The position numbers were made by a program, and so were the translations under genes. Source: Horticoccus luteus (GTDB taxonomy: Bacteria > Verrucomicrobiota > Verrucomicrobiia > Opitutales > Opitutaceae). Taken from it: a stretch of 32,000 bases of DNA. Below, piece after piece: positions 5,733 to 25,800 of the stretch. How positions within the stretch are numbered: the first letter of the stretch is position 1; each line of letters opens with the position of its first letter. Under the pieces are notes generated by a model. That model saw only the letters and a list, made by a program, of their open reading frames with translations. It did not search any database and was not told the origin of the DNA. The DNA lies in the NCBI RefSeq assembly GCF_019464535.1, contig NZ_CP080507.1, forward strand, positions 3,990,001 through 4,022,000. Direction: 5' to 3'.

Positions 5733-5781
5733 TCTAATCCTCGGCGTTGGTCGCAACGGCCGGGCCAACGCCACTCTCCCC

Positions 5782-6825: not shown

Positions 6826-6840
6826 TCGGGCGAAAAATTA

Positions 6841-6875: not shown

Positions 6876-6958
6876 GTGGCAAAACCGTTGGCCGAAATGA
6901 GTCGGAGTCAACGCACGATCCGCCCGCGCGGTATCGTGGATGTCGCGGCAAAAGGGCA

Positions 6959-11401: not shown

Positions 11402-12858
11402 TGAATCGATCGACCTTGTATTCTCCCGGAGTGTGGCGCGCCGGCCTCCTCGGCATGGCCGGCATAATCTTCCTGGCCGGGTGTGCGACCAACCCCAAGG
11501 CCAGCTTGCCTGCGGTGCAGGAGGCAGTGGCCAGCCGGAGTGGACTCCAGGTGACGTGGCGGCAAACTGAGGCCGAGCGCGACGAGGCTGAGCGGGCGAT
11601 CACGACGTTGCTGGCTGAGGAATTGTCTCCGGAGCGGGCGGTGGAAATCGCCGTGATCAACAATCGCGAGCTGCGCGCGACCTTTGAGGACTTGGGAGTG
11701 TCGCAGTCCGAGCTGATTGCAGCGTCCCGGTTGAGGAATCCGAGTTTCGGCGTCGGCGTGCGCTGGCCCAAGGATCGTCCGCGCGGCCCCAACGTGGAGT
11801 TTTCAATCGCAGCCGACCTGCTCGACAGTGTGCTCTTACCCGTGCGCAGGAGTGTCGCCCGCGAGCAGCTCAGCCAAGCTGAGCAACGGGTAGCCCACGC
11901 GGTGCTCAGTCTCGCCGCGGAGGTCAAGACGGCGGTCTATGCCGTGGAAGCCCGGCAGCAGCTGCGGGTGCGGTTGGCTTCGGTCGTGGACGTAAACGCG
12001 GCGGCGACCGATCTTGCGCAGCGCCAGTTCCAAGCCGGAAACATCAATCAGCTCGAACTCGCGAACCAGCAGATGGCGGAACAGGAGGCGCGCCTGGGGT
12101 TGATGCAGGCGGAGGCGCAATTGCGAGCCGACCGCGAGCAACTCAATCGGTTGCTGGGTTTGTCGGGGAGGCAGACCGGCTGGACGCTGCCCGCGGAACT
12201 GCCTCCGCTGCCCGAAGCGGACGGCTTGCCAGACAATATCGAAGACCTTGCGGTGACACAGCGGCTCGACGTGGCGGCGATGAAGACGGACGTGGCCCTG
12301 GCCGAGAAGGCGCTGCGCTTGAAGCAGAAGACGCGGCTGCTTCCAGCTTCGATCGATCTCGGTCTCGATACTGAGCGCGATTCGGACGGCGGCCGGGTGA
12401 CCGGCCCCCGTCTGGAGTTCGCCCTGCCGATTTTTGATCAGGGGCAAGCGGAGCTGGCACGACTGGCGGCCGAACTGAGGCGCGCGAGTGCTCGCTACGA
12501 GGGATTGGCGAACGACGTTCGCTCGCAAGTCCGGGCGGGTCGCGACGCGCTGCTAGCGGCGCGCGAGGCGGCGGAGTATTATCAAAAGAGTCTTGTGCCG
12601 CAGCGGCGCACGCTGCTGCGGGAAACCCTCCTGCACTACAACGCCATGCAGAAGAGTAGTTACGAGTTACTGGCGGCCAAGGAACGTCTGCTCAACACCG
12701 AGCGAGAGAGTGTCGAAGCGTTGCGGGAGTATTGGACGGCCCGCACCGCCCTCGAAATGTCGTTAGGCGGTCGATTGCGATATGTCCCGGCGGCCGAGTC
12801 CGCGGCAGCCAAGGAAGAAGCGGTGCCCGAACATCAACATCAACACGGCAAGAACTAA
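11398..12858 (+). CDS. TolC-family outer-membrane efflux lipoprotein (CusC/CzcC-like)
   Basis: Lipobox IIFLAGCAT and two tandem long coiled-coil/barrel repeats typical of outer-membrane factors (486 aa). C-terminal tail PEHQHQHGKN. Confidence 0.85.
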   Translation: MMNRSTLYSPGVWRAGLLGMAGIIFLAGCATNPKASLPAVQEAVASRSGLQVTWRQTEAERDEAERAITTLLAEELSPERAVEIAVINNRELRATFEDLGVSQSELIAASRLRNPSFGVGVRWPKDRPRGPNVEFSIAADLLDSVLLPVRRSVAREQLSQAEQRVAHAVLSLAAEVKTAVYAVEARQQLRVRLASVVDVNAAATDLAQRQFQAGNINQLELANQQMAEQEARLGLMQAEAQLRADREQLNRLLGLSGRQTGWTLPAELPPLPEADGLPDNIEDLAVTQRLDVAAMKTDVALAEKALRLKQKTRLLPASIDLGLDTERDSDGGRVTGPRLEFALPIFDQGQAELARLAAELRRASARYEGLANDVRSQVRAGRDALLAAREAAEYYQKSLVPQRRTLLRETLLHYNAMQKSSYELLAAKERLLNTERESVEALREYWTARTALEMSLGGRLRYVPAAESAAAKEEAVPEHQHQHGKN

Positions 12859-12873
12859 ACTGCCCACGCTTCC

Positions 12874-14313
12874 ATGAAACCCGAACTTTCCCGACGTGAC
12901 TTCCTCGCGATGGCGGGCGGCGCCGCTCTCGCGCTGCCCACGGCGACCTTGCTCGCCAGCGGCAGCGAAACGGCACCCAAGCCCACGAGTGACGGCACCA
13001 CCCGTCCCTTTCAGCCGCCCGGATCGCCGGGTTACCGGCCGGTCATCACCCCCAACGGCCTTACCTTGCCGTGGAAGATGGTCGACGGTGTGAAGGTCTT
13101 TCACCTCGTGGCCGAACCGGTGCTTCATGAGTTCGCTCCCGGCCTGGTGGCCAATTGCTGGGGCTACAACGGACGTGTGCACGGCCCGACGATCGAGGCG
13201 GTCGAGGGTGACCGGGTGCGCATCTACGTCACGAACCGACTCGAGGCGCCGACCACGGTCCACTGGCACGGGGTATTGCTCCCGAGCGGTATGGATGGCG
13301 TTGGCGGCGTCAGCCAAAAGGCAATTCAGCCCGGTGAGACCTACAAATACGAGTTCACGCTCCGCCAGCACGGCACGCTGATGTATCACTCCCATCATGA
13401 TGAGATGACCCAGATGCAGCTCGGCATGATGGGGCTGCTTATCATCCACCCGAAAAATCCGAAAGCGCCGCCGCCGGATCGCGACTACGCGATCATGCTC
13501 TCGGAATGGAAGATTGAAGTCGGAGCCAAGCGACCCGATCCGAACGAGATGACGGATTTCAATGTCTTCACCATGAACGGCCGCAGCTTTCCCGGCACAC
13601 AGGCGCTCGTGGCGAGAAAGGGCGAGCGGGTCCGCATTCGCATCGGCAACCTGAGCACGATGAGTCATCACGCGATCCACCTGCATGGCTACTATTTCAA
13701 GGTGGTCGCGACGGATGGCGGCGAGATTCCCGAGAGCGGCCAATGGCCTGAGACGACGGTCCATATGCCCACCGGGAGCACCCGGACCATCGAGTTCGTG
13801 GCTGACGAGCCAGGCGACTGGGTCATGCACTGCCATATGCTCCACCACGTCATGACTCAGATGGGGCATCAGTTCGGAAACCTGATCGGCATCAACACCG
13901 AGGGCCTGAACAAGAAGATCAGACCGTTGGTGCCCGGATACATGACCATGGGCGAAACCGGCATGGGGGACATGGGCGACATGGGGATGACCGTGCCGCC
14001 GAACAGCCTGCCGATGGTGGGAGGACCCGGCCAGTATGACTACATCACGATGGGCGGCATGTTCACGATTCTGAAGGTCCGCGACGAATTGCCGGCCGAC
14101 GGGTCGGAACCGGGTTGGTATCAGTCGCCAGCCGGCACGCTGGCGCTGCCCGCCCCGGAGGAAGACTTGCGGCGCGATGGCATCGCGCTGGTGGCGGCCA
14201 CCGCCAAGCTCGAAGCCCGGGGGCAGCGCGTGGAGATCTGCGACCCGGCGGCCCTGGTCAAGAACGACGGGCCTCGTCAGGCGACGGCCCGGGTCAAGGT
14301 GGCGATACAGTGA
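12874..14313 (+). CDS. Tat-exported multicopper oxidase (CopA/CueO-type)
   Basis: Tat motif SRRDFLAMAGGAALALP. Copper ligand motifs HWHG, YHSHH, HLHG and HCHMLHHVMTQM. Met-rich loop GYMTMGETGMGDMGDMGMT. Confidence 0.9.
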   Translation: MKPELSRRDFLAMAGGAALALPTATLLASGSETAPKPTSDGTTRPFQPPGSPGYRPVITPNGLTLPWKMVDGVKVFHLVAEPVLHEFAPGLVANCWGYNGRVHGPTIEAVEGDRVRIYVTNRLEAPTTVHWHGVLLPSGMDGVGGVSQKAIQPGETYKYEFTLRQHGTLMYHSHHDEMTQMQLGMMGLLIIHPKNPKAPPPDRDYAIMLSEWKIEVGAKRPDPNEMTDFNVFTMNGRSFPGTQALVARKGERVRIRIGNLSTMSHHAIHLHGYYFKVVATDGGEIPESGQWPETTVHMPTGSTRTIEFVADEPGDWVMHCHMLHHVMTQMGHQFGNLIGINTEGLNKKIRPLVPGYMTMGETGMGDMGDMGMTVPPNSLPMVGGPGQYDYITMGGMFTILKVRDELPADGSEPGWYQSPAGTLALPAPEEDLRRDGIALVAATAKLEARGQRVEICDPAALVKNDGPRQATARVKVAIQ

Positions 14314-14323
14314 TTTTCCGTCT

Positions 14324-15397
14324 ATGAAGAAACTCGCATCCCTTTTGTTGCTGGCTGGCGTGGCGTTCAGCTCGAACGCGTTGGCTGGCGAAAAAACCGT
14401 GAGTCGGACGGAAGTCCAGCCGGCGACACAGCCCCAGCTGGCGGCTGACCTGAATGGCGAGGTCTGGCTGACCTACGGTCACGCCGAGGCGATCCTCGTG
14501 CGCCGCTCGGGTGACGGCGGCGAAACCTTTGGGGAGCCGATCAAGGTGGCCACCTTGCCGTCGCTGGCGCTCGGCATGCGCCGCGGACCGCGGATCGCGG
14601 TGCATGGCGATCACGTCACGATCACCGCCATCGGCGACGAGTTGGTATCGTTCCATTCGGGCGACGGCGGTCGGACCTGGTCAGCCGCCGTCACCATCAA
14701 CGATGTGGCCACGAGCGCCCGGGAAGGCTTGCACGACCTCGCCACGGCGCCCGACGGGCGGTTGTTTGTCACCTGGCTCGACCTGCGAGAAGGCGCGATG
14801 ATGGTCTGCGGGGCGGAGTCGGTCGATCACGGCCGGACTTGGAGTAAGAACGAACCTATTTACCGCTCTCCGGACAAGTCCGTCTGCGAGTGCTGCCATC
14901 CGAGCGCGACATTCGACGCGCAGGGAAACCTGGCGGTGATGTGGCGCAACTCCATCGCGGGTTCGCGTGACCTATGGATGGCGACACGAGCTGCCGGGGC
15001 TCGGGAATTCTCGGTTGCCCGCAAACTCGGCCAAGGGACTTGGAAGATTGCCGGTTGCCCGATGGACGGCGGACGGATCGTCGCTTATGGCCACGGCCGG
15101 TTCGGCAGCGTGTGGCAGCGAGCCGGGGAAATCTATTTCACGGCGGACAGCGGCTCAGAAGTCCTGCTTGGCCGCGGCAAACAGCCTGTCGCGGTTGTAT
15201 GCGACGGGAAGGTCTTCGCCTGCTGGCAGGATGGCCCGAACTTGGTCACGGCCCAACTTGGCCAAGGCGCTGCTGCGAAGCACGCGTCCAATGCGAAATT
15301 TGCAACAGCCTTGGCGCTCCCCGGAGGCGGGCTTCTGGTTGCTTATGAGCAGGCGGCCGAGACAAACCCGCCAGGCATTGTGATCGAGCGTTGGTAG
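14324..15397 (+). CDS. Secreted BNR/Asp-box beta-propeller protein (sialidase-fold-like) with Cys motifs
   Basis: Signal peptide MKKLASLLLLAGVAFSSNALA. Asp-box repeats SGDGGETF, SGDGGRTW and SVDHGRTW. Additional CECCHPS and GCPMDGG motifs. Confidence 0.75.
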   Translation: MKKLASLLLLAGVAFSSNALAGEKTVSRTEVQPATQPQLAADLNGEVWLTYGHAEAILVRRSGDGGETFGEPIKVATLPSLALGMRRGPRIAVHGDHVTITAIGDELVSFHSGDGGRTWSAAVTINDVATSAREGLHDLATAPDGRLFVTWLDLREGAMMVCGAESVDHGRTWSKNEPIYRSPDKSVCECCHPSATFDAQGNLAVMWRNSIAGSRDLWMATRAAGAREFSVARKLGQGTWKIAGCPMDGGRIVAYGHGRFGSVWQRAGEIYFTADSGSEVLLGRGKQPVAVVCDGKVFACWQDGPNLVTAQLGQGAAAKHASNAKFATALALPGGGLLVAYEQAAETNPPGIVIERW

Positions 15398-15491
15398 GGT
15401 TCTTGTAAGTGCGGGCCGACCGAGCTTTCGGGTTTGGCGTGAAATCCCATTTCGGTTGAGGGATTTACGAGAATGCCTTCGTTAAAGAAAC

Positions 15492-16139
15492 GTGCAGACG
15501 CTCCCGCAGAGACCAAAGTCAGGAAAAGCCTCTGGTCCGAAGGGGCGAAAACTTTCCATAACGCTGGAGGCGAATAGTGTGCGGGTCTTGGTGGTGGAAC
15601 GGGAACGCTTTCACCGGTTCCTGGCGGCGCGGCTGGGCGATGCGACTGTGGCGGACGATTTGCTACAGGACAGCCTCCTCGTCGCACTGCGCAAAGGCGG
15701 GACCCTGCGTCGGGGTGAGCGGGTGGTCGCTTGGTTTTACCGGATTCTGCGACGGGCGATCGTCGATCACTACCGCCGCCAGGCCCGAGACCGGCTCCGG
15801 CTGGATCGCCTCGGCAAAGAACTTCAAGCGACCGAGAGCGACCGGACGTCGCCGCCCCCGGATTGGGAGGCGGTCGTCTGTGCGTGCTTCGTCGGGTTGC
15901 TTCCGACGCTGAATCCGCGCTACGCCGACGTATTGCGACGGATGGATCTGCGCTCGGGACGCAAAGCTAGCGTCGCCCGTGAGTTGAATCTCACGGTCGC
16001 GACCTTGGATGTCGTGCTGCACCGGGCCCGGGCCCAGTTGCGTGAACGGCTGGAGGTTTTTTGCGGCGCTTGCAGCCGGGAGGGCTGTCTCAACTGTGCC
16101 TGTGAGGTCCGCGAACACCGCCGGACAGAAAAAGTGTAA
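15492..16139 (+). CDS. ECF sigma factor with C-terminal Cys-rich domain (CorE-like)
   Basis: Regions 2 and 4 are recognisable ([13 protein letters not shown]...[16 protein letters not shown]; [44 protein letters not shown]). There is a CAC motif in the linker and a C-terminal [15 protein letters not shown]. No adjacent anti-sigma gene. The start is uncertain (ATG 15492 or an internal GTG). Confidence 0.8.
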
Positions 16140-16168
16140 GGAATCGGTCCAGCGACCGTCAGCCAGGT

Positions 16169-18544
16169 ATGAAGCATCATTCTCCCAAGCATTCCCACTC
16201 GGATCACGGCCACTCTCACGGGGCGGAGGGCGCAGGCCAAACGGCCCGGGACGGCGGGAATGGCCACGCCGGGTGCCGCCATCACGGTTCCGGCGACCAC
16301 CGCGAACACCAGCCGAAGGCCGCGGCGGCCTACTACTGTCCCATGTGCGAGGGCGTCGAATCGGATCGACCCGGGGATTGTCCCAAATGCGGCATGGCGT
16401 TGGAGCGAAATCCAGCCTATCGCGAGCCCGCCAGGTCCATTTGGACCTGCCCGATGCATCCGCAGATCGAACAGGATCAGCCCGGCGACTGTCCCATTTG
16501 CGGCATGGCCCTCGAGCCGAAAGCCGTAACGTCCACGACGGTCGAGGACAGCCATGAACTGCGCGACATGACGCGGCGCTTCTGGGTGGGCGGACTGCTG
16601 GCGCTGCCGGTTCTCGTGCTGGGAATGCTGCATGTCGTGCCTGCGCTGCTGCACGTCGTGAATTCGCCGGCGAGCCGCTGGGCGCAGTTTCTCCTTTCGA
16701 CTCCAGTGGTCCTGTGGGCAGGCTGGCCCTTCTTCGTGCGCGGCGCGAAATCGCTGCGGTCTGGCCATTGGAACATGTTCACACTGATCGCCATTGGCGT
16801 AGGCGCGGCCTGGCTCTACAGCGTTGTCGCCTTCTTTGCGCCGGGCTTTTTCCCGCCCTCGATGCGGACGCATGGTGTGGTCGACGTTTATTTCGAAGCC
16901 GCTGCCGTGATCGTCGTTTTCGTGCTGCTCGGCCAGGTGCTCGAACTGCGGGCCCGGGCGCGCACGTCGACGGCCATCAAGGCCCTGCTCAATCTGGCTC
17001 CCCCGGTAGCACTGCGTCTGACCGCCGAAGGGGATCGCGAAGTCCCGCTCGACGCTGTGCAGGCCGGGGACCGGCTGCGCGTGCGTCCCGGCGCCAAGGT
17101 GCCGGTGGACGGCGTGGTCGAGGAAGGTGCGTCTGCTGTCGACGAATCCATGATCACGGGGGAATCGCTGCCGGTCGAAAAGAAAGTCGGCGACCACGTC
17201 ACGGGCGGCACCGTGAACGCGACTGGGAGCTTCGTGTTTCGGGCCGAGAAGGTCGGCACCGACACGATGCTCGCGCGCATCGTGAACATGGTTGCGGAGG
17301 CGCAACGCAGCCGGGCGCCGATTCAGGGCCTGGCGGATAAGGTGGCGGGGATTTTCGTGCCGGCCGTGGTGATTATTGCGGCGGTGACCTTCGTTGCGTG
17401 GTTTTTCATCGGCCCCGAACCGCGCCTAGCCCATGCCATCGTGAACGCCGTCGCCGTCCTGATTATCGCTTGCCCCTGTGCGCTGGGGCTCGCGACCCCC
17501 ATGTCCATCATGGTGGGAGTGGGCCGGGGGGCGCAGGCCGGAGTCCTCGTCAAGCATGCGGAGGCGCTCGAACTCCTTGGCAAGGTGAAGTGGCTGGTCG
17601 TGGACAAGACGGGCACCTTGACGGAGGGGCGGCCCCAGCTGGTGGATGTGGTGGTGGCCGATGGCACGGCTGAGACGGATCTCGTGCGGTTGGCCGCCGC
17701 GGTCGAGCGAGCGTCGGAGCACCCGCTAGCTGCGGCCATCGTTCGCGGTGCTGAACACCGCGGGATTTCGGTGCCGGAGGCGGCGGACTTTCGTTCGATC
17801 ACGGCCGGGGGTGTGATGGGCAAAGTGGAGGGGCGGTTGGTCCTCGTGGGGAAAGCCAAGTTTTTGGCGGACCAAGGCGTCCCGTCCGATTCCACCCTGA
17901 ACGAACGAGCTACCCAACTGCAGTTGGAGGGTAAGACCGCCCTATTTGTTGCGATTGACGGACGGTCCGCAGGGGCGCTCGCCGTGGCTGATCCGATCAA
18001 GGCGACGACCCGCGAAGCCATGGCGAATCTCCACGCGCTCGGCATTAAGGTGGTGATGGCAACGGGCGACAATCGTCACACGGCAGCATCCGTCGCACGG
18101 CAACTGGGGATCGACCGCTTCGAGGCTGAGGTCGAGCCCGCCCGCAAGATCGCCCTCGTGGAGGAGCTGAAGCGGACCGGAGACCGCGTTGCCATGGCGG
18201 GTGACGGGATCAACGATGCCCCGGCGCTTGCGGCTGCCGATGTGGGCCTGGCCATGGGCACCGGCACGGACGTCGCGATGGAAAGCGCGGGAGTGACGCT
18301 CGTGAAAGGCGACCTCCGGGGGATTGCGAAGGCGGTGCACCTGTCTCGCGCCACCATGGGAAACATCCGGCAGAATCTCTTCTTTGCGTTCGTTTACAAC
18401 GCGCTGGGCGTGCCGATCGCCGCCGGGGCCCTCTATCCTGTCTTCGGTTGGCTCCTGAGCCCGATCCTCGCGGGTGCGGCGATGTCCCTGTCATCGGTGT
18501 CGGTGATCACCAATGCCCTGCGGCTGCGGCGCATGCGGCTCTAA
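16169..18544 (+). CDS. copA: Copper-translocating P1B-type ATPase
   Basis: His-rich N-terminus [16 protein letters not shown]. Two CPMC/CPMH...CPxCGMAL metal-binding modules. TM CPC motif ([13 protein letters not shown]), DKTGTLT and GDGINDAP. Confidence 0.95.
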
Positions 18545-18956: not shown

Positions 18957-19692
18957 TCAGTTGTTCGCGAACTCGCTCGCGAGACTCCAGAGCGCCTTGT
19001 TGAGCTTCTGGCCCTCGCTCAAGCCGCCCACCGCGCGCGTCCGGTTGCGGCGGATGCCCATGCCGGCAGTGTAGCCCATGTAGCGGTCACCGCCTCGGAT
19101 CAGGTGTTCCTGAACCACATTGAAGGTAGTCCAGAGGTCCGTGGCGGCATCGCCGTATCGCACCGGCGCCAGCAACTTCTCAGGGCTAAGGAGCTTCATG
19201 ACGGGCTGATCGGCATCCCAACGAAGGCCCGCCGCGCGCCGGGCGAACTCGACGCGGGCGGCCTGCGGGAGCTGAACCGCCTGCCACTTGGCGACGGCCT
19301 CCAGCATGCGCGGCGTGTTCTCGGCGACGGACTGTGCTGCCTTGGCGAAAGCGTCGGCGGAAATGTCCACGTGCCGGATCGAGACATGGGCAAAGTCGGC
19401 ATCCGCGACGGTCAGACCGTTGCGGCACACCAACCGATACAGGCCCGCGGCGAGGCGGCCAAGGTATCACCCAAGCTTCTCCAAGCTGGCGCCGATTTGT
19501 CGGATACGGCGATCCGCTCGGGCGAAACCCACCATCTCACCGAACTCGGCCACGCTGTCGAATTGCTCGCGGGACTCGATCCGCGCCGGTTGCGCGGTGC
19601 TTCGGTTACGCCGATTGGTGAAGCTGCACGCCTTGGTCTACATGCTCCGGCATCCCCGCGAAGCCTACCGCAGCCGCGAAGTGAGGGCGCAT
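18957..19692 (-). pseudogene. DUF932-like (conjugative-element/plasmid-associated) gene, apparently disrupted
   Basis: The C-terminal 158 aa are intact. The family-typical AGLYRLVCRNGL motif lies just after an in-frame TGA (19467-19469). Further upstream the reading frame shifts again, with a candidate ATG at 19690-19692. The family assignment is from memory of the GLFRLVCSNG signature. Confidence 0.5.
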
Positions 19693-20046
19693 TTCGTCAG
19701 ATTCGGTCTTCGGATTAGTTCGCTAGACTTCCGGCGCTTCTGCAAACGCCACGGCATCCGGCACGACGAACGCGCCGGCCGTCCTCGGGATCACGCGAGC
19801 GCGCGAGCTGCCGGCTAACCAGGGGCCAGGGGCCGGACTCGACCCCAGTTAGGCGCTGGCGGCGTTCGGGGCCGCGCGCGCCGTGGCAAAGCGTCGCAGG
19901 GAACGGCGCGCGAAGCTCCGGCGACACCCTCCAAGCCCAGCCCATCTTACGTTGCGCCCCTTCGAAGCTGATCGGGACGGAGACTTGCGCCACGGCAAGG
20001 ACGGCTGAAATCGCTCGCACCAACAACCTAACGCAGGATCAAGCCG

Positions 20047-20490
20047 CTACACTTTTGGCGGTTTGATGCTTCGCCCAATTGCCGCACCGACGGCCGCCCC
20101 GAAGGCAACGCCGACAGGACCGCCAGCCAATCCAAACAATCCGCCGAGTATCCCGCCCGCCGCGGCGTTGTCGTCACGCATTTTGCCCTTCACGGCTTTC
20201 GAGTAGGGGGCGCGACTTGTGCCATTCCATTTTCGCGCGGTTCGGGTGGTGAAATCGCTCTTGTCCCGATTGCAGCGAATACATGCTGGAAACAAGTTGT
20301 TGCGATGGTCGGTGCCGCCACATGCGCGGGGACGCGAATGTTCCACTTCCCATGATCCGCGATTCCCGAGAGACGCGTAGTTTTTGAACGACAATTTGCA
20401 GTGGCAGATATGGCAATACCCGTCGGTGCGTTCGTAGATGGTGCGGAGCAGGGTGACTTCGTAGGGCATAAGAATCGATTGCTTGGTCAA
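20047..20490 (-). CDS. HNH nuclease fused to a C-terminal glycine-zipper hydrophobic tail (147 aa)
   Basis: CHICHC...WEVEHSRPRACGGTDHRNNLFPACIRCNRDKSD (CxxC / H-N / CxxC HNH core). The tail is AAAGGILGGLFGLAGGPVGVAFGAAVGAAIG. Confidence 0.8.
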   Translation of the reverse strand: MTKQSILMPYEVTLLRTIYERTDGYCHICHCKLSFKNYASLGNRGSWEVEHSRPRACGGTDHRNNLFPACIRCNRDKSDFTTRTARKWNGTSRAPYSKAVKGKMRDDNAAAGGILGGLFGLAGGPVGVAFGAAVGAAIGRSIKPPKV

Positions 20491-20512
20491 ATCGTCCGGA
20501 TCGGCGGCGTCA

Positions 20513-21355
20513 TCAGAGTCGGGGAAACAGCAGCAATGTCAGAACTCCGAAAGGGCCGAGTCGCACCGCCTGCTCAACGATCACACAGTTTCGCGGCGAT
20601 GAGGCCGTGACATGCGCGAACCAGAAGCTTGCGGTTGATGGCGCTTCGAAAACGGGGCTCAGGCCGCCACCCGAAACCGCCTCGTGCGCGGTTCTGGATG
20701 CGAAGCCCTCCGGCAGCGCGGTGACTTCGGGTGCATTGCCGTAATCATAGCCAAGTTTTCGCAACATCGGAGAAATCGCGGGCCACGGTCGCTTGCCGGG
20801 TCGGAACATCATCGCCGCACACGGCACCGGGCACTCTTCGACGTAACGGATGGCTGTCGCTTGTGCGGAGACGTTGAAGGTGCTGCTTAGATTGAGGAGC
20901 CCTTGTAGGCCGGGCTTCTCTTTCGTCGCCGCTTTTCTGAAATCGTGCTGCGGCATCAACAGGTGGGAAGAAAATGTGTTGGCTTCCGTTTCGATCACGG
21001 AGTTGCCCGCCTTGTCGATGAACGACCGGTGCGCGGGCACCCGGCCGGATGCGAGTGCGTTCCGGTGCTCGTCGATGAAGTAGTGACCAAGTTCGTGGCC
21101 GACGGTGAAGCGTGCTCGGGTTGAACCTGGGTAATCCGTTTCCCGCACGTTGCAGTAAATGTGAAACTGCCCCCTCCGGTGTTCGAGCACGCCGTCAAAA
21201 GCGTTCCCATAGTCGCCGGTCGAAAAGGTGATGCCCTGATCCTCGATGAGCGGTGTTGGTTGCACTGGAATGACGCTCCCGACATCCGCAAAAGCGGTTT
21301 CAGCGAGGTCGGCGATCCAGCGCCGCCGAGTAACGCTCAACTCCGTGTAGGCCAT
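20513..21355 (-). CDS. ImmA/IrrE-family zinc metallopeptidase with extended C-terminal domain (280 aa)
   Basis: HEXXH motif in FTVGHELGHYFIDEH followed by EANTFSSHLLMP, typical of the family. Confidence 0.85.
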   Translation of the reverse strand: MAYTELSVTRRRWIADLAETAFADVGSVIPVQPTPLIEDQGITFSTGDYGNAFDGVLEHRRGQFHIYCNVRETDYPGSTRARFTVGHELGHYFIDEHRNALASGRVPAHRSFIDKAGNSVIETEANTFSSHLLMPQHDFRKAATKEKPGLQGLLNLSSTFNVSAQATAIRYVEECPVPCAAMMFRPGKRPWPAISPMLRKLGYDYGNAPEVTALPEGFASRTAHEAVSGGGLSPVFEAPSTASFWFAHVTASSPRNCVIVEQAVRLGPFGVLTLLLFPRL

Positions 21356-21741
21356 TAGCGTTTTTTCTTGGCCTTCGCTTCGGCGGCGGCGCGGTGCTCG
21401 TCCATCCGCTGGCGGACCTCGGCATCGATCTCGCCGCCGTTACGGGCGGCCAAGGCGAGATCTTTCGCGAGCGCCGCGCTTTCAAACGGAAGGATTTTAG
21501 AAGCTTCGACTGGCTGGTCGCTCTTTTTGCCCCGCAAAAACTGTCGAAAGCTATTCACGTCGGGCGTGGGCAGTCGGGAATCGTCGACGGCGGCTTCAAT
21601 GCGATCGATGTCTTCCGGCGTTTCGGGAAAGGCGAGGCCGTCCTGCTTCATCATGTCGCGCAGGGCACGCTTCGTAGCGGCGAGGGTGGCTTTGTTCGTT
21701 GGAATGGGCTTGTTCATGTCTTTCGGGTGCTGACGGGGCAT
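21355..21741 (-). CDS. Hypothetical protein (128 aa), partner of the ImmA-like protease
   Basis: The ORF is translationally coupled to the protease gene (TAATG overlap at 21353-21357). It is a charged helical protein with a Lys-rich tail. I recognise no HTH. Confidence 0.55.
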   Translation of the reverse strand: MPRQHPKDMNKPIPTNKATLAATKRALRDMMKQDGLAFPETPEDIDRIEAAVDDSRLPTPDVNSFRQFLRGKKSDQPVEASKILPFESAALAKDLALAARNGGEIDAEVRQRMDEHRAAAEAKAKKKR

Positions 21742-21757
21742 TGGCGGACGAGGGGGA

Positions 21758-22474
21758 TTACTCGTTATCGAGCACGTGTTGCTTCATGCGCTCCAAGAGG
21801 CGGGAGCGTTGAGTTCGAAGTGAAATCTTGGTCATACCCAGCTCGGCGCAGAGTGCTTCCAAGACAGCCTTCGGCATGACGGTTTGCCCGGTGCGGCGGT
21901 CGTAATACTGCATGGTGTTGTAGAGAATCGCTTGGTCGTGGGGTGCCAGGCCGGAAACGAACGCACGAATGAGTGCGATCCGGCGGTGGGTCGGGGGCTC
22001 GGCCGCTTCGGTGTCCACCGGGTCGAGCGCCACGATGGCGCCCACGGTCTCGACATCGAATTCACAACGCTCTTCGCGCTCGGCGTATTCGCTGCGATAG
22101 GCGTCGATGCAGACGTTCTTCAGAATACAATAGAGCCAGAACTTGACGTGCTTGGTTTTCTCCGCGTCGGAGAGTTCCTTTTTTAACGGTCCGAACGTCT
22201 TCGCCGCGCGGAGAGCTTTCTGGAAGGTTTTCTTAACCAAATCCTCATGATTCTGGCGGTAGAGAAGAAAGCTTTTAGCGCACCAGCCGGTCATCTTTTT
22301 GGAGTGGCGCCGATACAACTCGGCCGCGGCGTCTTCGGCCATGATGGGCTCGTCGTCATCGAATCCCATGTAGGTCACCAGGGATTCATCCGTCTCGTTT
22401 TCCATGACTACTTTGTTTGCCGCACGTTCGGGAGGCTCTCGCTGAAGTTTTGGGAGGGATAAACCGTTCATCAC
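21758..22474 (-). CDS. Divergent ECF-like sigma-70 family protein
   Basis: Region-2-like ELYRRHSKKMTGWCAKSF...KFWLYCILKNVCIDAYR and region-4-like LAPHDQAILYNTMQYYD...EALCAELGMTKISLRTQRSRLLERMK. The start is ambiguous (22474/22471 or ATG at 22405). Confidence 0.7.
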   Translation of the reverse strand: MMNGLSLPKLQREPPERAANKVVMENETDESLVTYMGFDDDEPIMAEDAAAELYRRHSKKMTGWCAKSFLLYRQNHEDLVKKTFQKALRAAKTFGPLKKELSDAEKTKHVKFWLYCILKNVCIDAYRSEYAEREERCEFDVETVGAIVALDPVDTEAAEPPTHRRIALIRAFVSGLAPHDQAILYNTMQYYDRRTGQTVMPKAVLEALCAELGMTKISLRTQRSRLLERMKQHVLDNE

Positions 22475-22521
22475 TACTCTAACGAGAAGGCGTTACAGGG
22501 GACCGGCGAAAGGCGGCGTGT

Positions 22522-22535
22522 AACGGGGTCCCGTT
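22522..22535. promoter_or_regulatory. Palindrome AACGGG-GT-CCCGTT in the divergent control region (candidate operator)
   Basis: Perfect 6-bp arms. A related half-repeat GTTACAGGGGACC lies at 22492-22504, compared with GTAACGGGGTCC at 22520-22531. Confidence 0.35.
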
Positions 22536-22590
22536 GTAGGGGTGAAGGACAATCAGTCCTCTCTTTCAAACCATTAACCGAGGCAACACT

Positions 22591-22923
22591 ATGTCAGACA
22601 AGAATCAACCCAACGCCGGCCCCGATGCCGGTCTCGTCGACGAGGTCGATCTGGAGCAGGTCGCTAAAGCGGGCGGAAAGCCGCCGAAGGCCAAGCGTTA
22701 CCGCATCCGCATCGACGATCAATACTACGTCGTGAGCCAAGGCTCCATGACTGGCGCCGAGTTGCTGAAACTCGCCAGTAAAACGCCCCCGGAAAATTAC
22801 ATTCTGACCCAAAAGCTCCGGGGGGGCGTGATCAAGACTATCGGCCTGTCGGATGTCGTGGATTTCACCACGCCCGGCATCGAGCGTTTCAACACCCTGC
22901 CGCGGCAGGTGCAGGAGGGTTGA
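22591..22923 (+). CDS. Ubiquitin-like beta-grasp protein ('multiubiquitin'-type), C-terminus ends in Gly
   Basis: RYRIRIDDQYYVVSQGSMTGAELLKLASKTPPENYILTQKLRGGVIKTIGLSDVVDFTTPGIERFNTL matches the multiubiquitin-domain pattern as I remember it. The last codons are Q-E-G-stop. A GAGG Shine-Dalgarno lies 8 nt upstream. Confidence 0.7.
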   Translation: MSDKNQPNAGPDAGLVDEVDLEQVAKAGGKPPKAKRYRIRIDDQYYVVSQGSMTGAELLKLASKTPPENYILTQKLRGGVIKTIGLSDVVDFTTPGIERFNTLPRQVQEG

Positions 22924-22928
22924 AGCCC

Positions 22929-23312
22929 ATGAGGCATGATTTTTCTTTGCCCGAGGAGGACGAGGAAAGCCTCAATGCCTTGGGCATCCCATGGGAAACG
23001 ATCCGTGACGGGGGCAACCAATGGTTGCTCCTTCACGAGATGCCGTTTCGTGAGGGCTTCAACCATCGCACGGGGTCCGTTGCCGTGCAGATTCCGCCCA
23101 GTTATCCGACCGCTGGCCTCGATATGGCCTATTTCTTTCCCCATCTAGCAAGGCTCGACGGGAAGACTATCGGGCAAACTCAGTGCAAGCAGCCGATTGA
23201 CGGTAAGCAATGGCAGCGGTGGTCCCGGCACTACTCCTGGGTGCCGGGCGTGCACAGCGTCTCAACTCATGTGGTCCTCATCCATCGGTGGCTGGAAGCC
23301 GCCACAAACTAA
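22929..23312 (+). CDS. Prokaryotic E2/UBC-like protein (family-E-like)
   Basis: PPSYPTAGLDMAYFFPHLARLDG...QCKQPIDGKQWQRWSRH matches my memory of the prokaryotic E2 family found with JAB-E1 and multiubiquitin genes. GGAGG lies 10 nt upstream of the ATG at 22929. An alternative TTG at 22920 overlaps the Ubl stop. Confidence 0.7.
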   Translation: MRHDFSLPEEDEESLNALGIPWETIRDGGNQWLLLHEMPFREGFNHRTGSVAVQIPPSYPTAGLDMAYFFPHLARLDGKTIGQTQCKQPIDGKQWQRWSRHYSWVPGVHSVSTHVVLIHRWLEAATN

Positions 23313-24712
23313 TGCTTCGTCAACCCGAGATCATTCTCCGCCTTACGGCGACCCAGCACGACCAACTCAAGCGAACCCTCTTTCCCGGTGACGGCAAAGA
23401 ATCGGTCGCGGTGGCGCTCTGCGGCACGCATCGTAGCGCCCAACGCACCGTGCTCAGCGTGCATCGGATCAACGCCGTGCCGGACGAAAGTTGCACCGAG
23501 CGGAGTGCGGTTTCCGTCGTTTGGCCGACCGAACCACAGGTGCCGCTCTTCTCAGAGGGCGCGAGAAAAAAGATGGTGGTGCTGAAAATTCACAGTCATC
23601 CGTCGGGATTTCCCCGGTTTTCTGGCCTGGATGACAAAGCCGACCGTGCCTTGCTCGGGAGCTTGCTCAAGCTCGCGCCGAACGAAATCGGCCATGCGAG
23701 TGCCGTGATGCTGCCCGAGGGGAAAATCTTCGCGCGTCTCCTCGGGGGTGAGGGGCGATTTTCGAAAATCGCTCGCGTGGTGGTCGTGGGCGATGAAATC
23801 GTCAGCTTTGAGGACAGCCGTTCGATCAAGGGAGCGCTGTTTGATGAAGCCTTCCTGCGGACGCAGCAGGCATTCGGTGCCAGAACGGCTTCGATGCTCT
23901 CGAAAATGCGCGTTGGCGTCGTGGGTTGTTCTGGCACGGGGAGCTGGGTCGTCGAAATGCTGTCTCGACTCGGTGTTGGTGAACTCGTGCTCGTTGATCC
24001 CGATGTGATCGAGCGGAAGAACCTCAACCGTATCCTCAACAGCGTGGCGAGCGACGCCGCGGCGGCGCGCCCCAAAGTGAAGGTGTTCGCCCGTGCCATC
24101 CGACGCCTGGGTCTTGGCACGAAGGTGACGAGTTATCAGACAGACATTCTCCAGCGCAAAGTTGTCCACTCCTTGGCGGGCTGTGATTTTCTGTTCGGTT
24201 GCGTCGATTCTGCCGATGGCCGGGACGCGCTGAATCGGGTCGCTGCCTTTTACATCATCCCCTACGTTGATGTGGGTGTGCTCCTGCAAGCGGATGGGAA
24301 AGGCAGCGTGCAACAGGTCTGCGCCGCGGTTCACTATTTGATTCCCGACGGCTCAAGCCTCCTCAGCCGCCGCGTCATCACTGCTGAGCAGGTGCGCGCT
24401 GAATCGCTACGCCGGCGCTCTCCCGATCAATATGCGGCCTTGCGGAAGGAAGGCTACATTCAGGGCGTAAATGTCGATAGCCCGGCCGTGATCAGCATCA
24501 ACGGGTTTGCGGCGAGTCATGCGGTGAACGAGATGCTGGCCCGGATTCATCCGTTCCGACGCGATGCCAACGGCGAATTTCGTGCGCAGACTTTTTCGTT
24601 GTCTGACGGTGCGTGGTTGAGGATCGAAGACGGTCCGGTATGCCCGTTTCTTAGCAAGCGGACCGGTCGTGGAGATTGTGAGCCGATGCTCGATAACTCG
24701 GAACTGTCATGA
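23312..24712 (+). CDS. JAMM/JAB metallopeptidase domain fused to ThiF/E1-like adenylyltransferase (466 aa)
   Basis: Exact JAMM motif HSHPSGFPRFSGLD (H-x-H-x7-S-x2-D) from 23591. E1 Rossmann MRVGVVGCSGTGSWVVEMLSRLGVGELVLVDPDVIERKNLNR and FLFGCVDSADGRDALN. TAATG overlap with the E2 gene. Confidence 0.85.
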   Translation: MLRQPEIILRLTATQHDQLKRTLFPGDGKESVAVALCGTHRSAQRTVLSVHRINAVPDESCTERSAVSVVWPTEPQVPLFSEGARKKMVVLKIHSHPSGFPRFSGLDDKADRALLGSLLKLAPNEIGHASAVMLPEGKIFARLLGGEGRFSKIARVVVVGDEIVSFEDSRSIKGALFDEAFLRTQQAFGARTASMLSKMRVGVVGCSGTGSWVVEMLSRLGVGELVLVDPDVIERKNLNRILNSVASDAAAARPKVKVFARAIRRLGLGTKVTSYQTDILQRKVVHSLAGCDFLFGCVDSADGRDALNRVAAFYIIPYVDVGVLLQADGKGSVQQVCAAVHYLIPDGSSLLSRRVITAEQVRAESLRRRSPDQYAALRKEGYIQGVNVDSPAVISINGFAASHAVNEMLARIHPFRRDANGEFRAQTFSLSDGAWLRIEDGPVCPFLSKRTGRGDCEPMLDNSELS

Positions 24713-25065
24713 CCAAGAAATTCCTGCGCTGGATCGAACGCCTCTTTCGCACGACCAAGGATAGCGCCGAGGCGTTCCAATGGGCCAAGGTTGAACATTT
24801 GCCGACGCCGTTGGCGGAGAAAAAAATTTACGTGCTGGGAGACGACGAATGTGAATGGGCGGCTGCGATGGCCTGTCCTTGCGGCTGTGGATCGACCATT
24901 CACCTAAGCTTGGCTCCCGATAGTCGGCCCACTTGGCGCGTGCGGCGTCACCGCAACGGCACGGTCAGTCTCTTGCCCTCGGTTTGGAGAACCGTCGGCT
25001 GCCGGAGCCATTTTGTGCTCTACAAGGGCCGAATCTTTTGGTGCCGCAACGAGCCTTTCGAATAG
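24709..25065 (+). CDS. Small Cys/His-rich protein (118 aa), DUF6527-like
   Basis: C56-P-C58-G-C60 cluster plus C98-x-x-H101 and C112. ATGA overlap with the E1 stop. The family name is from memory of this gene neighbourhood. Confidence 0.65.
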   Translation: MTKKFLRWIERLFRTTKDSAEAFQWAKVEHLPTPLAEKKIYVLGDDECEWAAAMACPCGCGSTIHLSLAPDSRPTWRVRRHRNGTVSLLPSVWRTVGCRSHFVLYKGRIFWCRNEPFE

Positions 25066-25117
25066 AAAGGCCGCGTGCCTTATGAGGCCGGCGCGGTGAG
25101 GCTTGCCGCGCGTTACT

Positions 25118-25441
25118 TCACTGCCCTGCGGTCATGGTGTTGGTGCTCCCGGGGTTCATGGTGGTCGCCGTGAGGTTGGCGTTTGTCGTCAGAGGGTTAG
25201 TGTTGGTCGTCGGAAGGTTTAGGTTTGTCGTCAGAGGGTTAAGGTTTGTCGCCACGAGGTTTGTATTGGTCGCCACGGGGTTAGTGTTTGTCGCCGGAAG
25301 GTTAGTGTTGGTCGTCGGAGGGTTAGTTTTGGGCGACGGAGGGTTAGTGTTGGTCGTCCCGAGGTTAGTGTTGGTCGCCACAAGGGTCAGATTGGCACAA
25401 AACGCCGGAATAAGGGCTCCGCCCGAAAGCGTCTGTGCCAA
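25118..25441 (-). CDS. Possible Thr/Asn-rich heptad-repeat protein encoded by the 21-bp repeat
   Basis: The minus frame reads ...LPATNTNPVATNTNLVATNLNPLTTNLNLPTTNTN... using GC-ending codons. However, it only has a TTG (25439-25441) or an internal GTG start and no clear signal peptide. Confidence 0.3.
   Translation of the reverse strand: MAQTLSGGALIPAFCANLTLVATNTNLGTTNTNPPSPKTNPPTTNTNLPATNTNPVATNTNLVATNLNPLTTNLNLPTTNTNPLTTNANLTATTMNPGSTNTMTAGQ
25153..25404. repeat. About 12 tandem copies of a degenerate 21-bp unit (consensus GGTTAGTGTTGGTCGTCGGAG)
   Basis: Units start at 25153, 25174, 25195, 25216, 25237, 25258, 25279, 25300, 25321, 25342, 25363 and 25384, with exact 21-bp phasing. Confidence 0.9.
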
Positions 25442-25800
25442 CGCGTGCGGGAACGTCTTGGCGCCCTCTTCGTGCGTGCGGCAAGTCGGCGATTCGTCGC
25501 GGCGACTTCAAAGGCAGCGCGGACGGACCGCCGACGAAAGCGTTCATGCGCGACGCGTGCCGGACGCCCACTACCATGACCCGCCGCCTGGCGGTCGCGA
25601 TGAGCGAAACGGTTTTCTCCTCCCCGCGGCGGAACGTCGGCCGTTCATTTGCGTGAACCTTCAACGGGGGATACGTTCTCACAACTCTCGGCAACAGAGT
25701 GAGTCAGCCGCTTCCCGCCCCTGCTCCGGACCCTTTCCCGTCCCTCATCCGGCCGGCGAAACCCGGCGGCACCGGCGAAAAACGACCCCTCCCTTTACCT

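What the first reader, a model, noticed from the sequence alone, without database searches (positions are those of the whole stretch)
22591..25065. Compact four-gene ubiquitin-like conjugation cassette: Ubl, E2-like, JAMM-E1 fusion and a small Cys/His protein
**Seen in the sequence**
- Four co-directional genes are packed with start/stop overlaps: TTGA region at 22920-22923, TAATG at 23310-23314, ATGA at 24709-24712. This implies stoichiometric co-expression.
- The genes encode a beta-grasp Ubl ending in Gly, a UBC-like protein, and a single polypeptide joining an intact JAMM motif (HSHPSGFPRFSGLD) to a ThiF/E1 Rossmann (GCSGTGS...ERKNLNR). The fourth protein carries a CPCGC...CxxH cluster.

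**Established knowledge**
- Iyer, Burroughs and Aravind predicted bacterial Ubl/E2/E1/JAB operons.
- Two related families, CBASS Cap2/Cap3 and the BilABCD system, were shown experimentally to act in antiphage immunity.

**What differs here**
- The deconjugase is fused to the N-terminus of the E1.
- There is no CD-NTase.
- There is an extra Cys/His protein.
- The cassette sits in an accessory island next to a protease/nuclease operon.

**Inference and caveat**
- I infer a conjugation-based defence or anti-mobile-element system whose target and output are unknown.
- Gene quartets of this type may already be annotated as multiubiquitin / E2 / ThiF / DUF6527, and a recently reported 'Bub' class may overlap with it. 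I cannot verify membership here.
Basis: partly seen in the sequence, partly recalled or inferred. Interest (0 to 1): 0.9.

Follow-up and report, generated by a model that had tools for sequence, protein, structure and literature searches.

The report
Known Bub ubiquitin-like conjugation operon
The four genes are a real bacterial ubiquitin-like protein-tagging operon, but it belongs to the already described and structurally solved 'Bub' family, so it is a new example of a known system rather than a new kind of system.

Summary
Four co-directional, tightly packed genes at 22591-25065 encode a ubiquitin-like protein ending in Gly, an E2-like protein, a JAMM peptidase-E1 fusion and a small Cys/His protein.

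They are BubA, BubB, BubCD and BubE of the Bub ("6E"/DUF6527) pathway (Ye, Gong, Chambers & Corbett, PMC11601596). BubCD matches the Citrobacter BubCD crystal structure over its full length (E=2e-74). BubB matches BubB (E=3e-26; model TM 0.96).

The neighbouring "protease/nuclease operon" is a CapP-type regulator module, already reported beside 31% of Bub operons.

Three modest points go beyond the literature I could read:
- BubA and BubB are separate genes here. This arrangement recurred in every stand-alone context I inspected, across several phyla, yet the JAMM domain stays intact.
- The regulator is an ECF-like sigma factor, a CapH-like protein without a recognisable HTH, and CapP.
- The eight genes move as one 5-kb cassette.

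The biological role is still unproven. Interest is low to moderate.

The parts
22591..22923 (+). bubA: ubiquitin-like protein, 110 aa. It has about 36 residues of N-terminal tail, one beta-grasp domain, and ends in Gly110 directly followed by TGA.
   Evidence: - Pfam Multi_ubiq E=3e-13 over residues 37-104.
- Weak PDB matches to Bub/Bil Ubls: 9cd2 E=3e-5 and 9ea8_B (BubA) E=0.04.
- ...RQVQEG followed by a stop is conserved in the window and L001-L008.
22929..23312 (+). bubB: stand-alone E2-like protein, 127 aa. Predicted active site is D65 / S99 / H101 (QRWSRH).
   Evidence: - Pfam Prok-E2_E E=6e-35.
- PDB 9eae_C Citrobacter BubB E=3e-26.
- AF2 model pLDDT 94; Foldseek to 9eae_C gives TM 0.96 and rmsd 1.1 A.
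- Q96-R-W-S99-R-H101 is invariant in 36 homologues, whereas C86 is not conserved.
23312..24712 (+). bubCD: JAB/JAMM peptidase (about residues 1-165) fused to a ThiF-type E1 (about residues 185-466).
- JAB site: E30, H94, H96, D107.
- E1: GCSGTGS at 205, R240, crossover-loop Y382.
- No Cys in the crossover loop.
   Evidence: - PDB 9ea4_A Citrobacter BubCD E=2e-74, aligned 10-465.
- Pfam ThiF E=3e-29 and Prok-JAB E=9e-5.
- Residue mapping to Citrobacter E28/H91/H93/D104/R227/Y370.
24709..25065 (+). bubE: DUF6527 protein, 118 aa.
- Amphipathic N-terminal extension.
- Cys4 zinc site: C56/C58/C60/C98.
- Ser91-His101 dyad.
   Evidence: - Pfam DUF6527 E=3e-21. Newer Pfam labels name PF20137 'BubE'.
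- Spacing is identical to Citrobacter C57/C59/C61/C99 and S92/H102.
22480..22535 (.). Two operator-like inverted repeats, TAACG-N6-CGTT(A), at 22480-22495 and 22521-22535. They lie in the 119-nt divergent promoter region between the sigma gene and bubA.
   Evidence: - Arms are conserved while spacers vary in L001-L007.
- These are the only occurrences of the pattern in the 32-kb window: expected 0.15, and 0 of 100 shuffles reach 3.
- No sigma-70 consensus promoter was found in 19800-25600.
21758..22471 (-). Divergent ECF-like sigma-70 family factor, first gene of the regulator operon. The ATG is at 22471; the ORF also has a GTG at 22474.
   Evidence: - Pfam Sigma70_r2 E=9e-9.
- NCBIfam TIGR02937 sigma70-ECF E=2e-8 over 48-233, below its cut-off.
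- Conserved next to Bub in L001-L007.
21355..21717 (-). CapH-like small protein. It is 120 aa from the ATG at 21717; the ORF extends to 21741. It has no detectable HTH and carries an invariant LAxAARNGxxI motif. Proposed to be the CapP substrate.
   Evidence: - No Pfam hit.
- PADLOC capH E=0.003 here; 36 of 57 family members hit capH, best 1e-6.
- AF2 gives isolated helices only, pTM 0.25.
- The family has about 150 representatives.
- Always preceded by a sigma-like gene in the contexts read.
20513..21355 (-). capP: ImmA/IrrE-type Zn metallopeptidase with an HExxH motif (HELGH).
   Evidence: - PADLOC capP E=3e-43 over the full length.
- Pfam Peptidase_M78 E=5e-13.
- NCBI name: ImmA/IrrE family metallo-endopeptidase.
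20047..20490 (-). Small HNH endonuclease with a C-terminal glycine-zipper tail, last gene of the regulator operon. It is an accessory member of the cassette.
   Evidence: - Pfam HNH E=7e-6; the Gly-zipper hit (E=0.006) is below its cut-off.
- Present at 64-97% identity in L001-L003 and L005; not detected in L004, L006 or L007.
- An unrelated-length HNH_5 gene follows capP in L013-L015.
20045..25082 (.). Limits of the 5.0-kb eight-gene cassette shared with other genomes.
   Evidence: blastn of the related loci against the window gives 92-96% nt identity over 20045-25082 in L001-L003, and 72-75% in L004/L005. Homology ends sharply at both edges.

Best explanation
This is a Bub (bacterial ubiquitination-like, '6E'/DUF6527) protein-conjugation operon of the Type I kind, carried on a mobile 5-kb cassette in Horticoccus luteus (Opitutaceae).

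**Conjugation cycle (inferred by homology to the Citrobacter system)**
1. The E1 domain of BubCD adenylates Gly110 of BubA.
2. BubA is taken onto the crossover-loop Tyr382 as an oxyester.
3. It is handed to Ser99 of BubB, assisted by His101 and Asp65.
4. BubB transfers BubA to lysines of still unknown targets.
5. BubE, a Zn-stabilised Ser91-His101 protease with an amphipathic N-terminus, removes conjugates.

**What differs here (shown)**
BubA is made as a finished protein with a free C-terminal Gly, and BubB is a separate gene.

**What I infer from that**
The still-intact JAMM domain of BubCD cannot be needed for BubAB pre-protein cleavage. It most likely trims or edits conjugates instead.

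**Proposed control of expression (inferred)**
The divergent operon (ECF-like sigma, CapH-like protein, CapP protease) would set expression. CapP, which single-stranded DNA activates in the CBASS-associated enzyme studied by Lau et al., would cleave the CapH-like protein, possibly at the invariant AA|R. That would switch on the bub promoter. The most likely route is release of the sigma factor.

The biological output (antiphage or anti-mobile-element defence, or a stress response) is not established.
For: **Identity**
- BubCD matches 9ea4_A at E=2e-74 over 10-465.
- BubB matches 9eae_C at E=3e-26, and its model fits at TM 0.96.
- BubE is Pfam DUF6527 (E=3e-21) and BubA is Multi_ubiq (E=3e-13).

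**Mechanism residues**
All published catalytic residues are conserved in the window and in nine relatives. There is no Cys in the E1 crossover loop, and no conserved Cys in BubB.

**The BubA|BubB split is real**
- Gly-stop followed by ATG with an SD sequence is conserved in nine loci at 55-96% protein identity.
- The best 120 BubB homologues are all stand-alone proteins.
- The same split operon occurs in Bacillaceae, Alpha- and Gammaproteobacteria.

**The JAB domain is maintained**
Its catalytic residues are intact, and dN/dS is 0.11-0.38.

**Regulator module**
- CapP matches at E=3e-43.
- Sigma, CapH-like and CapP are conserved beside Bub in L001-L007.
- The same triad lies beside Bil and Bub operons in Bacteroidota.
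- The literature reports CapH+CapP beside 31% of Bub operons, and a sigma factor in 24 CapH/CapP CBASS loci.

**Mobility**
- The cassette limits are sharp.
- GC falls to 0.565-0.60 across 20-25 kb, against 0.62-0.67 in the windows on either side.
- BubCD homologues occur on 124 plasmids and in none of 50,697 phage records.
Against: - No biochemistry exists for this locus. The oxyester chemistry is transferred from a homologue that is about 40% identical.
- The published definition of Type I Bub requires a BubAB fusion, which is absent here.
- The authors of the family suggest the JAB domain acts mainly or only in pre-protein cleavage, so the deconjugation role proposed here is untested.
- No anti-phage phenotype has been found for any Bub operon.
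- The sigma/anti-sigma reading rests on gene order, the absence of a detectable HTH and a low-confidence model (pTM 0.25). Which protein binds the conserved palindromes is not identified. Their half-site spacing does not fit an ECF -35/-10 pair.
Confidence: 0.85

Rival explanations
1. A sulfur-carrier system of the ThiS/MoaD-ThiF/MoeB type for cofactor or thio-compound synthesis, not a protein-conjugation system.
For: The E1 domain hits ThiF/MoeB models: TIGR02356 E=1.5e-19, and MoeB E=4e-14.
Against: - All those scores lie far below the family cut-offs (70 bits against 275).
- The operon carries an E2, a JAB peptidase and BubE.
- No sulfurtransferase or cofactor genes are adjacent.
- It sits on a mobile cassette with a CapP regulator.
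- The full-length best match is BubCD.
Confidence: 0.02
2. A degraded Type I Bub operon. On this reading the BubA/BubB break is a frameshift or nonsense lesion (or an assembly error) in a former bubAB fusion, and the system is inactive.
For: - In the window and L001-L005, BubA and BubB lie in different frames.
- The published family description says all Type I operons have a fusion.
Against: - The stop falls exactly after the processing-site Gly in nine independent assemblies.
- An ATG follows within 1-7 nt, and the QEG codons form AGGAGG.
- L006-L008 have an in-frame stop rather than a frameshift.
- All 120 best BubB homologues are stand-alone.
- Split operons occur in four phyla.
- All four genes keep their catalytic residues.
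Confidence: 0.03
3. A general DNA-damage or stress-response modifier, or a mobile-element maintenance function. The operon would be a working Bub pathway whose targets are host or element proteins and which gives no phage protection.
For: - The describing laboratory found no phage protection and raises this possibility.
- CapP-type regulators respond to DNA damage.
- The cassette lies in a metal-resistance and ICE-remnant island containing RadC and DUF932.
- BubCD homologues sit on 124 plasmids, 60 of them conjugative.
Against: - Relatives sit beside recognised defence genes: an MmeI-type restriction enzyme in L024, and HamA and a reverse transcriptase in L023.
- The related Bil and CBASS conjugation systems are antiviral.
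- This rival concerns the biological role only, not the molecular mechanism.
Confidence: 0.35
4. A Bil-type or CBASS Cap2/Cap3-type system rather than Bub.
For: - PADLOC 'E1-E2' (Cap2) models hit BubCD, best 2e-13.
- BubA weakly matches a BilA Ubl, E=0.03.
Against: - The PADLOC hits cover only the Rossmann segment, residues 190-310.
- There is no CD-NTase.
- The E1 is a single short adenylation domain without the inactive-domain/Cys-domain architecture of BilD.
- The E2 is Prok-E2_E with Ser in place of Cys.
- A DUF6527 gene is present.
Confidence: 0.02

Closest known systems
Type I Bub operon (6E.1) of Citrobacter sp. RHBSTW-00271: BubAB, BubCD, BubE (Ye, Gong, Chambers & Corbett, PMC11601596; PDB 9ea4, 9ea5, 9ea8, 9eae, 9eav)
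   Same: - JAB-E1 fusion of the same length and domain order (E=2e-74).
- Prok-E2_E E2 with the D/S/H site.
- Crossover-loop Tyr, with no catalytic Cys.
- DUF6527 BubE with Cys4 and a Ser-His dyad at identical spacing.
- Ubl ending in a single Gly.
- Location on a mobile element.
   Different: - BubA and BubB are separate genes here rather than a BubAB pre-protein.
- BubA has one beta-grasp domain rather than three.
- The regulator is a sigma + CapH-like + CapP triad with an HNH gene.
- Sequence identity is only about 40%.
Type II Bub operon (6E.2): BubA, BubBD (E2-E1 fusion), BubE
   Same: Stand-alone BubA with a free C-terminal Gly, BubE, and oxyester-type Ser and Tyr residues.
   Different: - Type II fuses the E2 to the E1 and usually has no JAB peptidase.
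- Its E2 site uses Ser with Lys+His rather than Asp+His.
- Here the E2 is free and the E1 carries a JAB domain.
CapH+CapP regulators of CBASS and other defence operons (Lau et al. 2022, bioRxiv 10.1101/2022.04.27.489752), related to DdrO/IrrE and ImmR/ImmA
   Same: - CapP metallopeptidase (PADLOC capP E=3e-43).
- Divergent orientation upstream of the controlled operon.
- A small partner protein encoded just upstream of capP.
- An invariant Arg in a C-terminal helix that could correspond to the F82|R83 cleavage site.
   Different: - The partner has no detectable HTH.
- It is always accompanied by an ECF-like sigma factor.
- Split Bub operons with a canonical HTH CapH (L022, L024) have no sigma gene.
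Bil (bacterial ISG15-like) BilABCD systems
   Same: A Ubl, E2, JAB and E1 gene set, found in mobile or defence contexts. In L013-L015 a Bil operon lies beside the same sigma / CapH-like / CapP triad as here.
   Different: Bil uses a multidomain E1 with a catalytic Cys domain, a Cys E2 and a separate JAB protein, and has no DUF6527.

Membership tests
Bub (6E / DUF6527) pathway | DUF6527 (BubE) gene in the operon, with a Cys4 site and a Ser-His dyad | tested here: met
   Pfam PF20137 E=3e-21. C56/C58/C60/C98 and S91/H101 are conserved across nine relatives.
Bub (6E / DUF6527) pathway | E2 of family Prok-E2_E with an invariant Ser in place of the catalytic Cys | tested here: met
   - PF14462 E=6e-35.
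- S99 and H101 invariant, D65 nearly so, C86 variable.
- Fold match to BubB, TM 0.96.
Bub (6E / DUF6527) pathway | Single-domain homodimer-type E1 with an invariant crossover-loop Tyr and no Cys | tested here: met
   Y382 in the GYI motif is conserved in all relatives and aligns with Citrobacter Y370. No Cys lies in the loop. Dimerisation was not tested.
Bub (6E / DUF6527) pathway | Beta-grasp Ubl of the multiubiquitin family ending in Gly | tested here: met
   PF14452 E=3e-13. The C-terminus is ...QEG followed by a stop.
Bub (6E / DUF6527) pathway | ATP-dependent conjugation through oxyester intermediates | not testable with these tools
   Needs biochemistry. Only residue conservation is shown here.
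Type I Bub (6E.1) | JAB/JAMM peptidase fused to the N-terminus of the E1 (BubCD) | tested here: met
   Full-length alignment to 9ea4_A at E=2e-74. E30/H94/H96/D107 are intact.
Type I Bub (6E.1) | Ubl encoded as a fusion to the E2 (BubAB pre-protein) | tested here: not met
   A stop codon directly follows Gly110 and BubB has its own ATG and SD. This is conserved in the window and L001-L008; a fusion is seen only in L009 and L025. The locus is therefore filed as Bub, Type I-like, split variant.
Type II Bub (6E.2) | E2-E1 fusion (BubBD) and no JAB domain | tested here: not met
   The E2 is a separate 127-aa protein and the E1 carries a JAB domain.
CapH+CapP regulator pair | CapP: ImmA/IrrE-type metallopeptidase encoded upstream of and divergent from the controlled operon | tested here: met
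   PADLOC capP E=3e-43 covering 5-241 of 242 profile positions. The HELGH motif is present. Orientation.
CapH+CapP regulator pair | CapH: helix-turn-helix DNA-binding repressor | tested here: not met
   - No HTH family in Pfam for this protein; among 57 relatives, two marginal hits in single members (HTH_32 E=0.0096; Lac_bphage_repr E=0.001).
- No PDB CapH match.
- The model has no compact domain.
- Only a weak PADLOC capH hit.
- Canonical CapH next to other split Bub operons does carry HTH_3/19/31.
CBASS type II (Cap2/Cap3) | CD-NTase plus an E2-E1 fusion Cap2 | tested here: not met
   No CD-NTase model hit among the eight cassette proteins. PADLOC E1-E2 hits are confined to the Rossmann region.

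The most novel reading that the evidence does not exclude
The cassette may be a distinct, self-contained variant in three linked ways.
1. The Ubl is born mature, so the JAMM domain of BubCD acts as a dedicated deconjugase or editor alongside BubE. This would contradict the suggestion that it serves only to cleave the pre-protein.
2. Expression is gated by a protease-controlled sigma/anti-sigma switch rather than by cleavage of an HTH repressor. DNA-damage-activated CapP would destroy a non-HTH CapH-like anti-sigma and free a dedicated ECF-like sigma.
3. The co-transcribed HNH nuclease is the killing or feedback arm.

The same triad beside Bil and Bub operons in Bacteroidota would make this a general control logic for bacterial ubiquitin-like systems.
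Probability: 0.3. Interest if true: 0.55.

Novelty: new member of a known kind. Interest (0 to 1): 0.3.

Why it matters
Bub pathways are the only ubiquitin-like conjugation systems known to run on oxyester rather than thioester intermediates, and their targets and biological role are still unknown. This locus does not change that picture.

It does give a clean natural experiment. A widespread form of the operon makes BubA already mature yet keeps an intact JAMM domain under purifying selection. That argues the JAMM domain has a job beyond pre-protein cleavage.

The compact 5-kb cassette, with its own sigma factor, CapP protease and HNH nuclease, is also a convenient unit for heterologous testing. 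It could show how DNA damage switches such systems on.

Tried and rejected
- **Programmed -1 frameshift joining BubA to BubB.** Rejected because L006-L008 have an in-frame stop followed by ATG, and the spacing and frame vary among relatives.
- **The TAACG-N6-CGTT sites as an ECF promoter.** I tried to read them as a -35/-10 pair. The 6-nt spacer is about ten bases too short, and no conserved element lies 16-17 nt away. They are left as operator-like sites with an unknown binder. The same palindrome is not found in the distant triad loci, which carry other inverted repeats.
- **Structure prediction of the CapH-like protein.** It gave pTM 0.25, too poor for a fold search. A profile search of the PDB found nothing meaningful.
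- **Scanning metagenome contigs with the CapH-like alignment.** I used exact-protein context look-ups instead.
- **Supplementary tables of the two Bub preprints.** They are not held as text, so I could not check whether split operons are among the 544 catalogued.
- **PADLOC 2023.** It has no Bub models, so its silence on BubA, BubB and BubE is uninformative.
- **Rfam.** No RNA family was found in 19500-25800.
- **Terminator-like sites.** No more frequent than in shuffled sequence.


Full report
**1. Observation**

The four ORFs are present and co-directional:

| Gene product | Coordinates | Length |
|---|---|---|
| Ubl | 22591-22923 | 110 aa |
| E2-like | 22920 or 22929-23312 | 130 or 127 aa |
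| JAMM-E1 | 23312-24712 | 466 aa |
| Cys/His protein | 24709-25065 | 118 aa |

- The TAATG (23310-23314) and ATGA (24709-24712) overlaps are real.
- The TTGA at 22920-22923 exists, but the E2 gene almost certainly starts at ATG 22929. In nine related loci BubA ends ...RQVQEG-stop and an ATG follows 1-7 nt later. The Gln-Glu-Gly codons (CAG GAG GGx) supply an AGGAGG ribosome-binding site. NCBI calls the same 127-aa product.

**2. Identity**

Pfam gives Multi_ubiq (3e-13), Prok-E2_E (6e-35), ThiF (3e-29) with Prok-JAB (9e-5, just under its cut-off), and DUF6527 (3e-21).

The PDB sequence search is decisive:
- The third protein aligns over residues 10-465 with 'Citrobacter BubCD' (9ea4, E=2e-74).
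- The second aligns with 'Citrobacter BubB' (9eae_C, E=3e-26).
- An AlphaFold model of the E2 (pLDDT 94) superposes on 9eae_C with TM 0.96 and rmsd 1.1 A. Eukaryotic E2s follow far behind.

These structures come from Ye, Gong, Chambers & Corbett (PMC11601596). That paper renames the '6E'/'DUF6527' operons of Iyer, Burroughs and Aravind as Bub. It defines Type I as BubAB (a Ubl-E2 fusion) + BubCD (JAB-E1) + BubE (DUF6527). Current Pfam labels already call PF20137 'BubE'.

The window is from Horticoccus luteus.

**3. Mechanism residues**

The paper shows that Bub works without catalytic cysteines:
- A crossover-loop Tyr on the E1 (Y370).
- A Ser on the E2 (S333, with H335 and D299).
- A Ser-His dyad in BubE (S92/H102) next to a Cys4 zinc site.

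Alignment of the window proteins with nine relatives and with the Citrobacter sequences shows every equivalent conserved:

| Protein | Conserved residues in the window |
|---|---|
| BubCD | E30, H94, H96, D107 (JAB); R240, Y382 (E1) |
| BubB | D65, S99, H101 |
| BubE | C56, C58, C60, C98; S91, H101 |

The E1 crossover loop has no Cys. The likely chemistry is therefore the published oxyester relay. This is inferred by homology and not shown for this locus.

**4. What differs from the published description**

The paper states that in all Type I operons BubA is fused to BubB and is released by the JAB domain. It suggests that JAB may act 'primarily or solely' in that cleavage.

Here BubA and BubB are separate genes, split exactly at the processing-site Gly.
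- This is not an error. It is conserved in the window and L001-L008 (55-96% protein identity). Three loci have an in-frame stop and six have a frame change, and all have a restart ATG.
- The best 120 BubB homologues in a 5.8-billion-protein database are all stand-alone proteins of 72-155 aa (most 127-142), none long enough to be a fusion.
- Split four-gene operons occur in Robertmurraya (Bacillaceae), Bauldia, Steroidobacteraceae and others.
- Fused forms also exist: L009 (Saprospiraceae) and a Mesorhizobium plasmid.

In the split clade the JAB catalytic residues are intact. The domain evolves under purifying selection, with dN/dS of 0.11-0.38 against 0.04-0.14 for the E1 domain (dS is near saturation for the deeper pairs). 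I infer that JAB has a role beyond pre-protein cleavage, most simply deconjugation or editing. This is untested.

**5. Surroundings**

The divergent operon encodes four proteins:
- An ECF-like sigma factor.
- A 120-aa protein.
- CapP (PADLOC capP, 3e-43).
- A small HNH nuclease with a glycine-zipper tail.

CapH+CapP pairs were reported next to 31% of Bub operons. A sigma-70-family gene was noted in 24 CapH/CapP CBASS loci. The association is therefore known.

*The 120-aa protein.*
- The 120-aa protein lacks any detectable HTH; among 57 relatives only two single members give marginal HTH-type Pfam hits (E=0.001 and 0.0096).
- It folds only into isolated helices in the model (pTM 0.25).
- It belongs to a family of about 150 representatives with an invariant LAxAARNGxxI motif.
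- In every context I read, this family is preceded by an ECF-like sigma gene and followed by a Peptidase_M78 gene in all but L023, where no Peptidase_M78 gene was called. These contexts lie beside Bil, Bub or other operons in Bacteroidota and Verrucomicrobiota.
- Split Bub operons with a canonical HTH CapH have no sigma gene.

*The model this suggests.* This complementary pattern rests on small numbers. It suggests the small protein is the CapP substrate that holds the sigma factor in check. CapP cleaves CapH at F82|R83, and the invariant AA-R here is a candidate site. This is inference.

*The intergenic region.*
- It carries two TAACG-N6-CGTT(A) inverted repeats whose arms are conserved out to relatives at 55% BubCD identity.
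- They are unique to this spot in the window (expected 0.15).
- No sigma-70 consensus promoter is present.
- Their binder is unknown.

**6. Mobility and context**

- The eight genes form a 5.0-kb block (20045-25082). It is shared at 92-96% nucleotide identity with three other assemblies, and homology ends sharply at both edges.
- GC falls to 0.565-0.60 across the cassette.
- The block lies in a region between tRNA-Glu (5187-5263) and gnd/zwf. That region carries copper and metal-resistance genes, RadC and a DUF932 fragment.
- BubCD homologues occur on 124 plasmids, 60 of them conjugative, and in none of 50,697 phage records.

This fits an accessory, horizontally moving system. It does not prove defence: the describing laboratory found no phage protection for any Bub operon as of 2024-2026.

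**7. Rivals**

- A ThiS/MoaD sulfur-carrier role is excluded by the E2, JAB and BubE genes and by sub-threshold ThiF/MoeB scores.
- A broken bubAB fusion is excluded by the conservation described in section 4.
- Bil and CBASS membership fail on domain architecture.
- Whether the pathway serves immunity or a broader DNA-damage response stays open.

**8. Verdict**

The domain interpretation is right, but the novelty claim is not. This is a new member of the known Bub family: Type I-like, in the common but under-described split BubA|BubB form, with a sigma-type CapP regulator and an accessory HNH gene. Interest is 0.3.

Noticed in passing
window 20513-22471 (-); also L013-L015, L016, L018, L020, L023: An ECF-like sigma gene precedes the non-HTH CapH-like gene (motif LAxAARNGxxI) in every context read, and a CapP peptidase follows in all but L023, beside Bil, Bub and other operons in distant phyla. 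Split Bub operons with a canonical HTH CapH (L022, L024) lack the sigma gene. This suggests a protease-gated sigma/anti-sigma switch.
   Followed up: partly
window 22480-22495 and 22521-22535: Two inverted repeats, TAACG-N6-CGTT(A), lie 41 bp apart in the sigma/bubA intergenic region. Their arms are conserved and their spacers vary out to relatives at 55% BubCD identity, and they are unique in the window. Which protein binds them is unknown, and the spacing does not fit an ECF -35/-10 pair.
   Followed up: partly
window 20047-20490 (-); L013 7461-8480: A 147-aa HNH endonuclease with a C-terminal glycine-zipper tail is the last gene of the regulator operon. It travels with the cassette in L001-L003 and L005. 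A longer HNH_5 gene also follows capP beside a Bil operon in a Bacteroidota conjugative element. It could be an effector or a feedback nuclease.
   Followed up: partly
window 25139-25411: A tandem array of about 9.7 copies of a 21-nt unit (GGTTAGTGTTTGTCGTCAGAG, about 76% matches) lies immediately right of the cassette boundary. On the minus strand it reads as a 107-aa 'TNTNP' heptad-repeat ORF (25118-25441). It is not shared with the related loci.
   Followed up: no
window 5187-25400: tRNA-Glu (5187-5263) is followed by a lower-GC accessory region. It contains RadC (6959-7558), two further ECF sigma genes (7726-8286, 15492-16139), metal-resistance genes (an outer-membrane efflux protein, a multicopper oxidase and a heavy-metal P-type ATPase at 11245-18544) and a truncated DUF932 gene (18957-19433). 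No integrase was identified.
   Followed up: partly
L002 (DASZZA010000115.1, 'Lacipirellulaceae' MAG): A contig binned as a planctomycete carries the cassette at 95% nucleotide identity to the Opitutaceae copies. This is either very recent transfer between phyla or a mis-binned contig.
   Followed up: no
L021 (Robertmurraya sp. P23) 4693-7157: A split Bub operon sits next to Tn7-like TniQ/TnsD genes. Its BubE appears broken into 44-aa and 60-aa pieces, so it may be a decaying copy.
   Followed up: no
window 23288-23312: NCBI annotates BubCD as 474 aa, starting 8 codons upstream at a GTG. Conservation among relatives and the TAATG coupling favour the ATG at 23312 (466 aa).
   Followed up: partly
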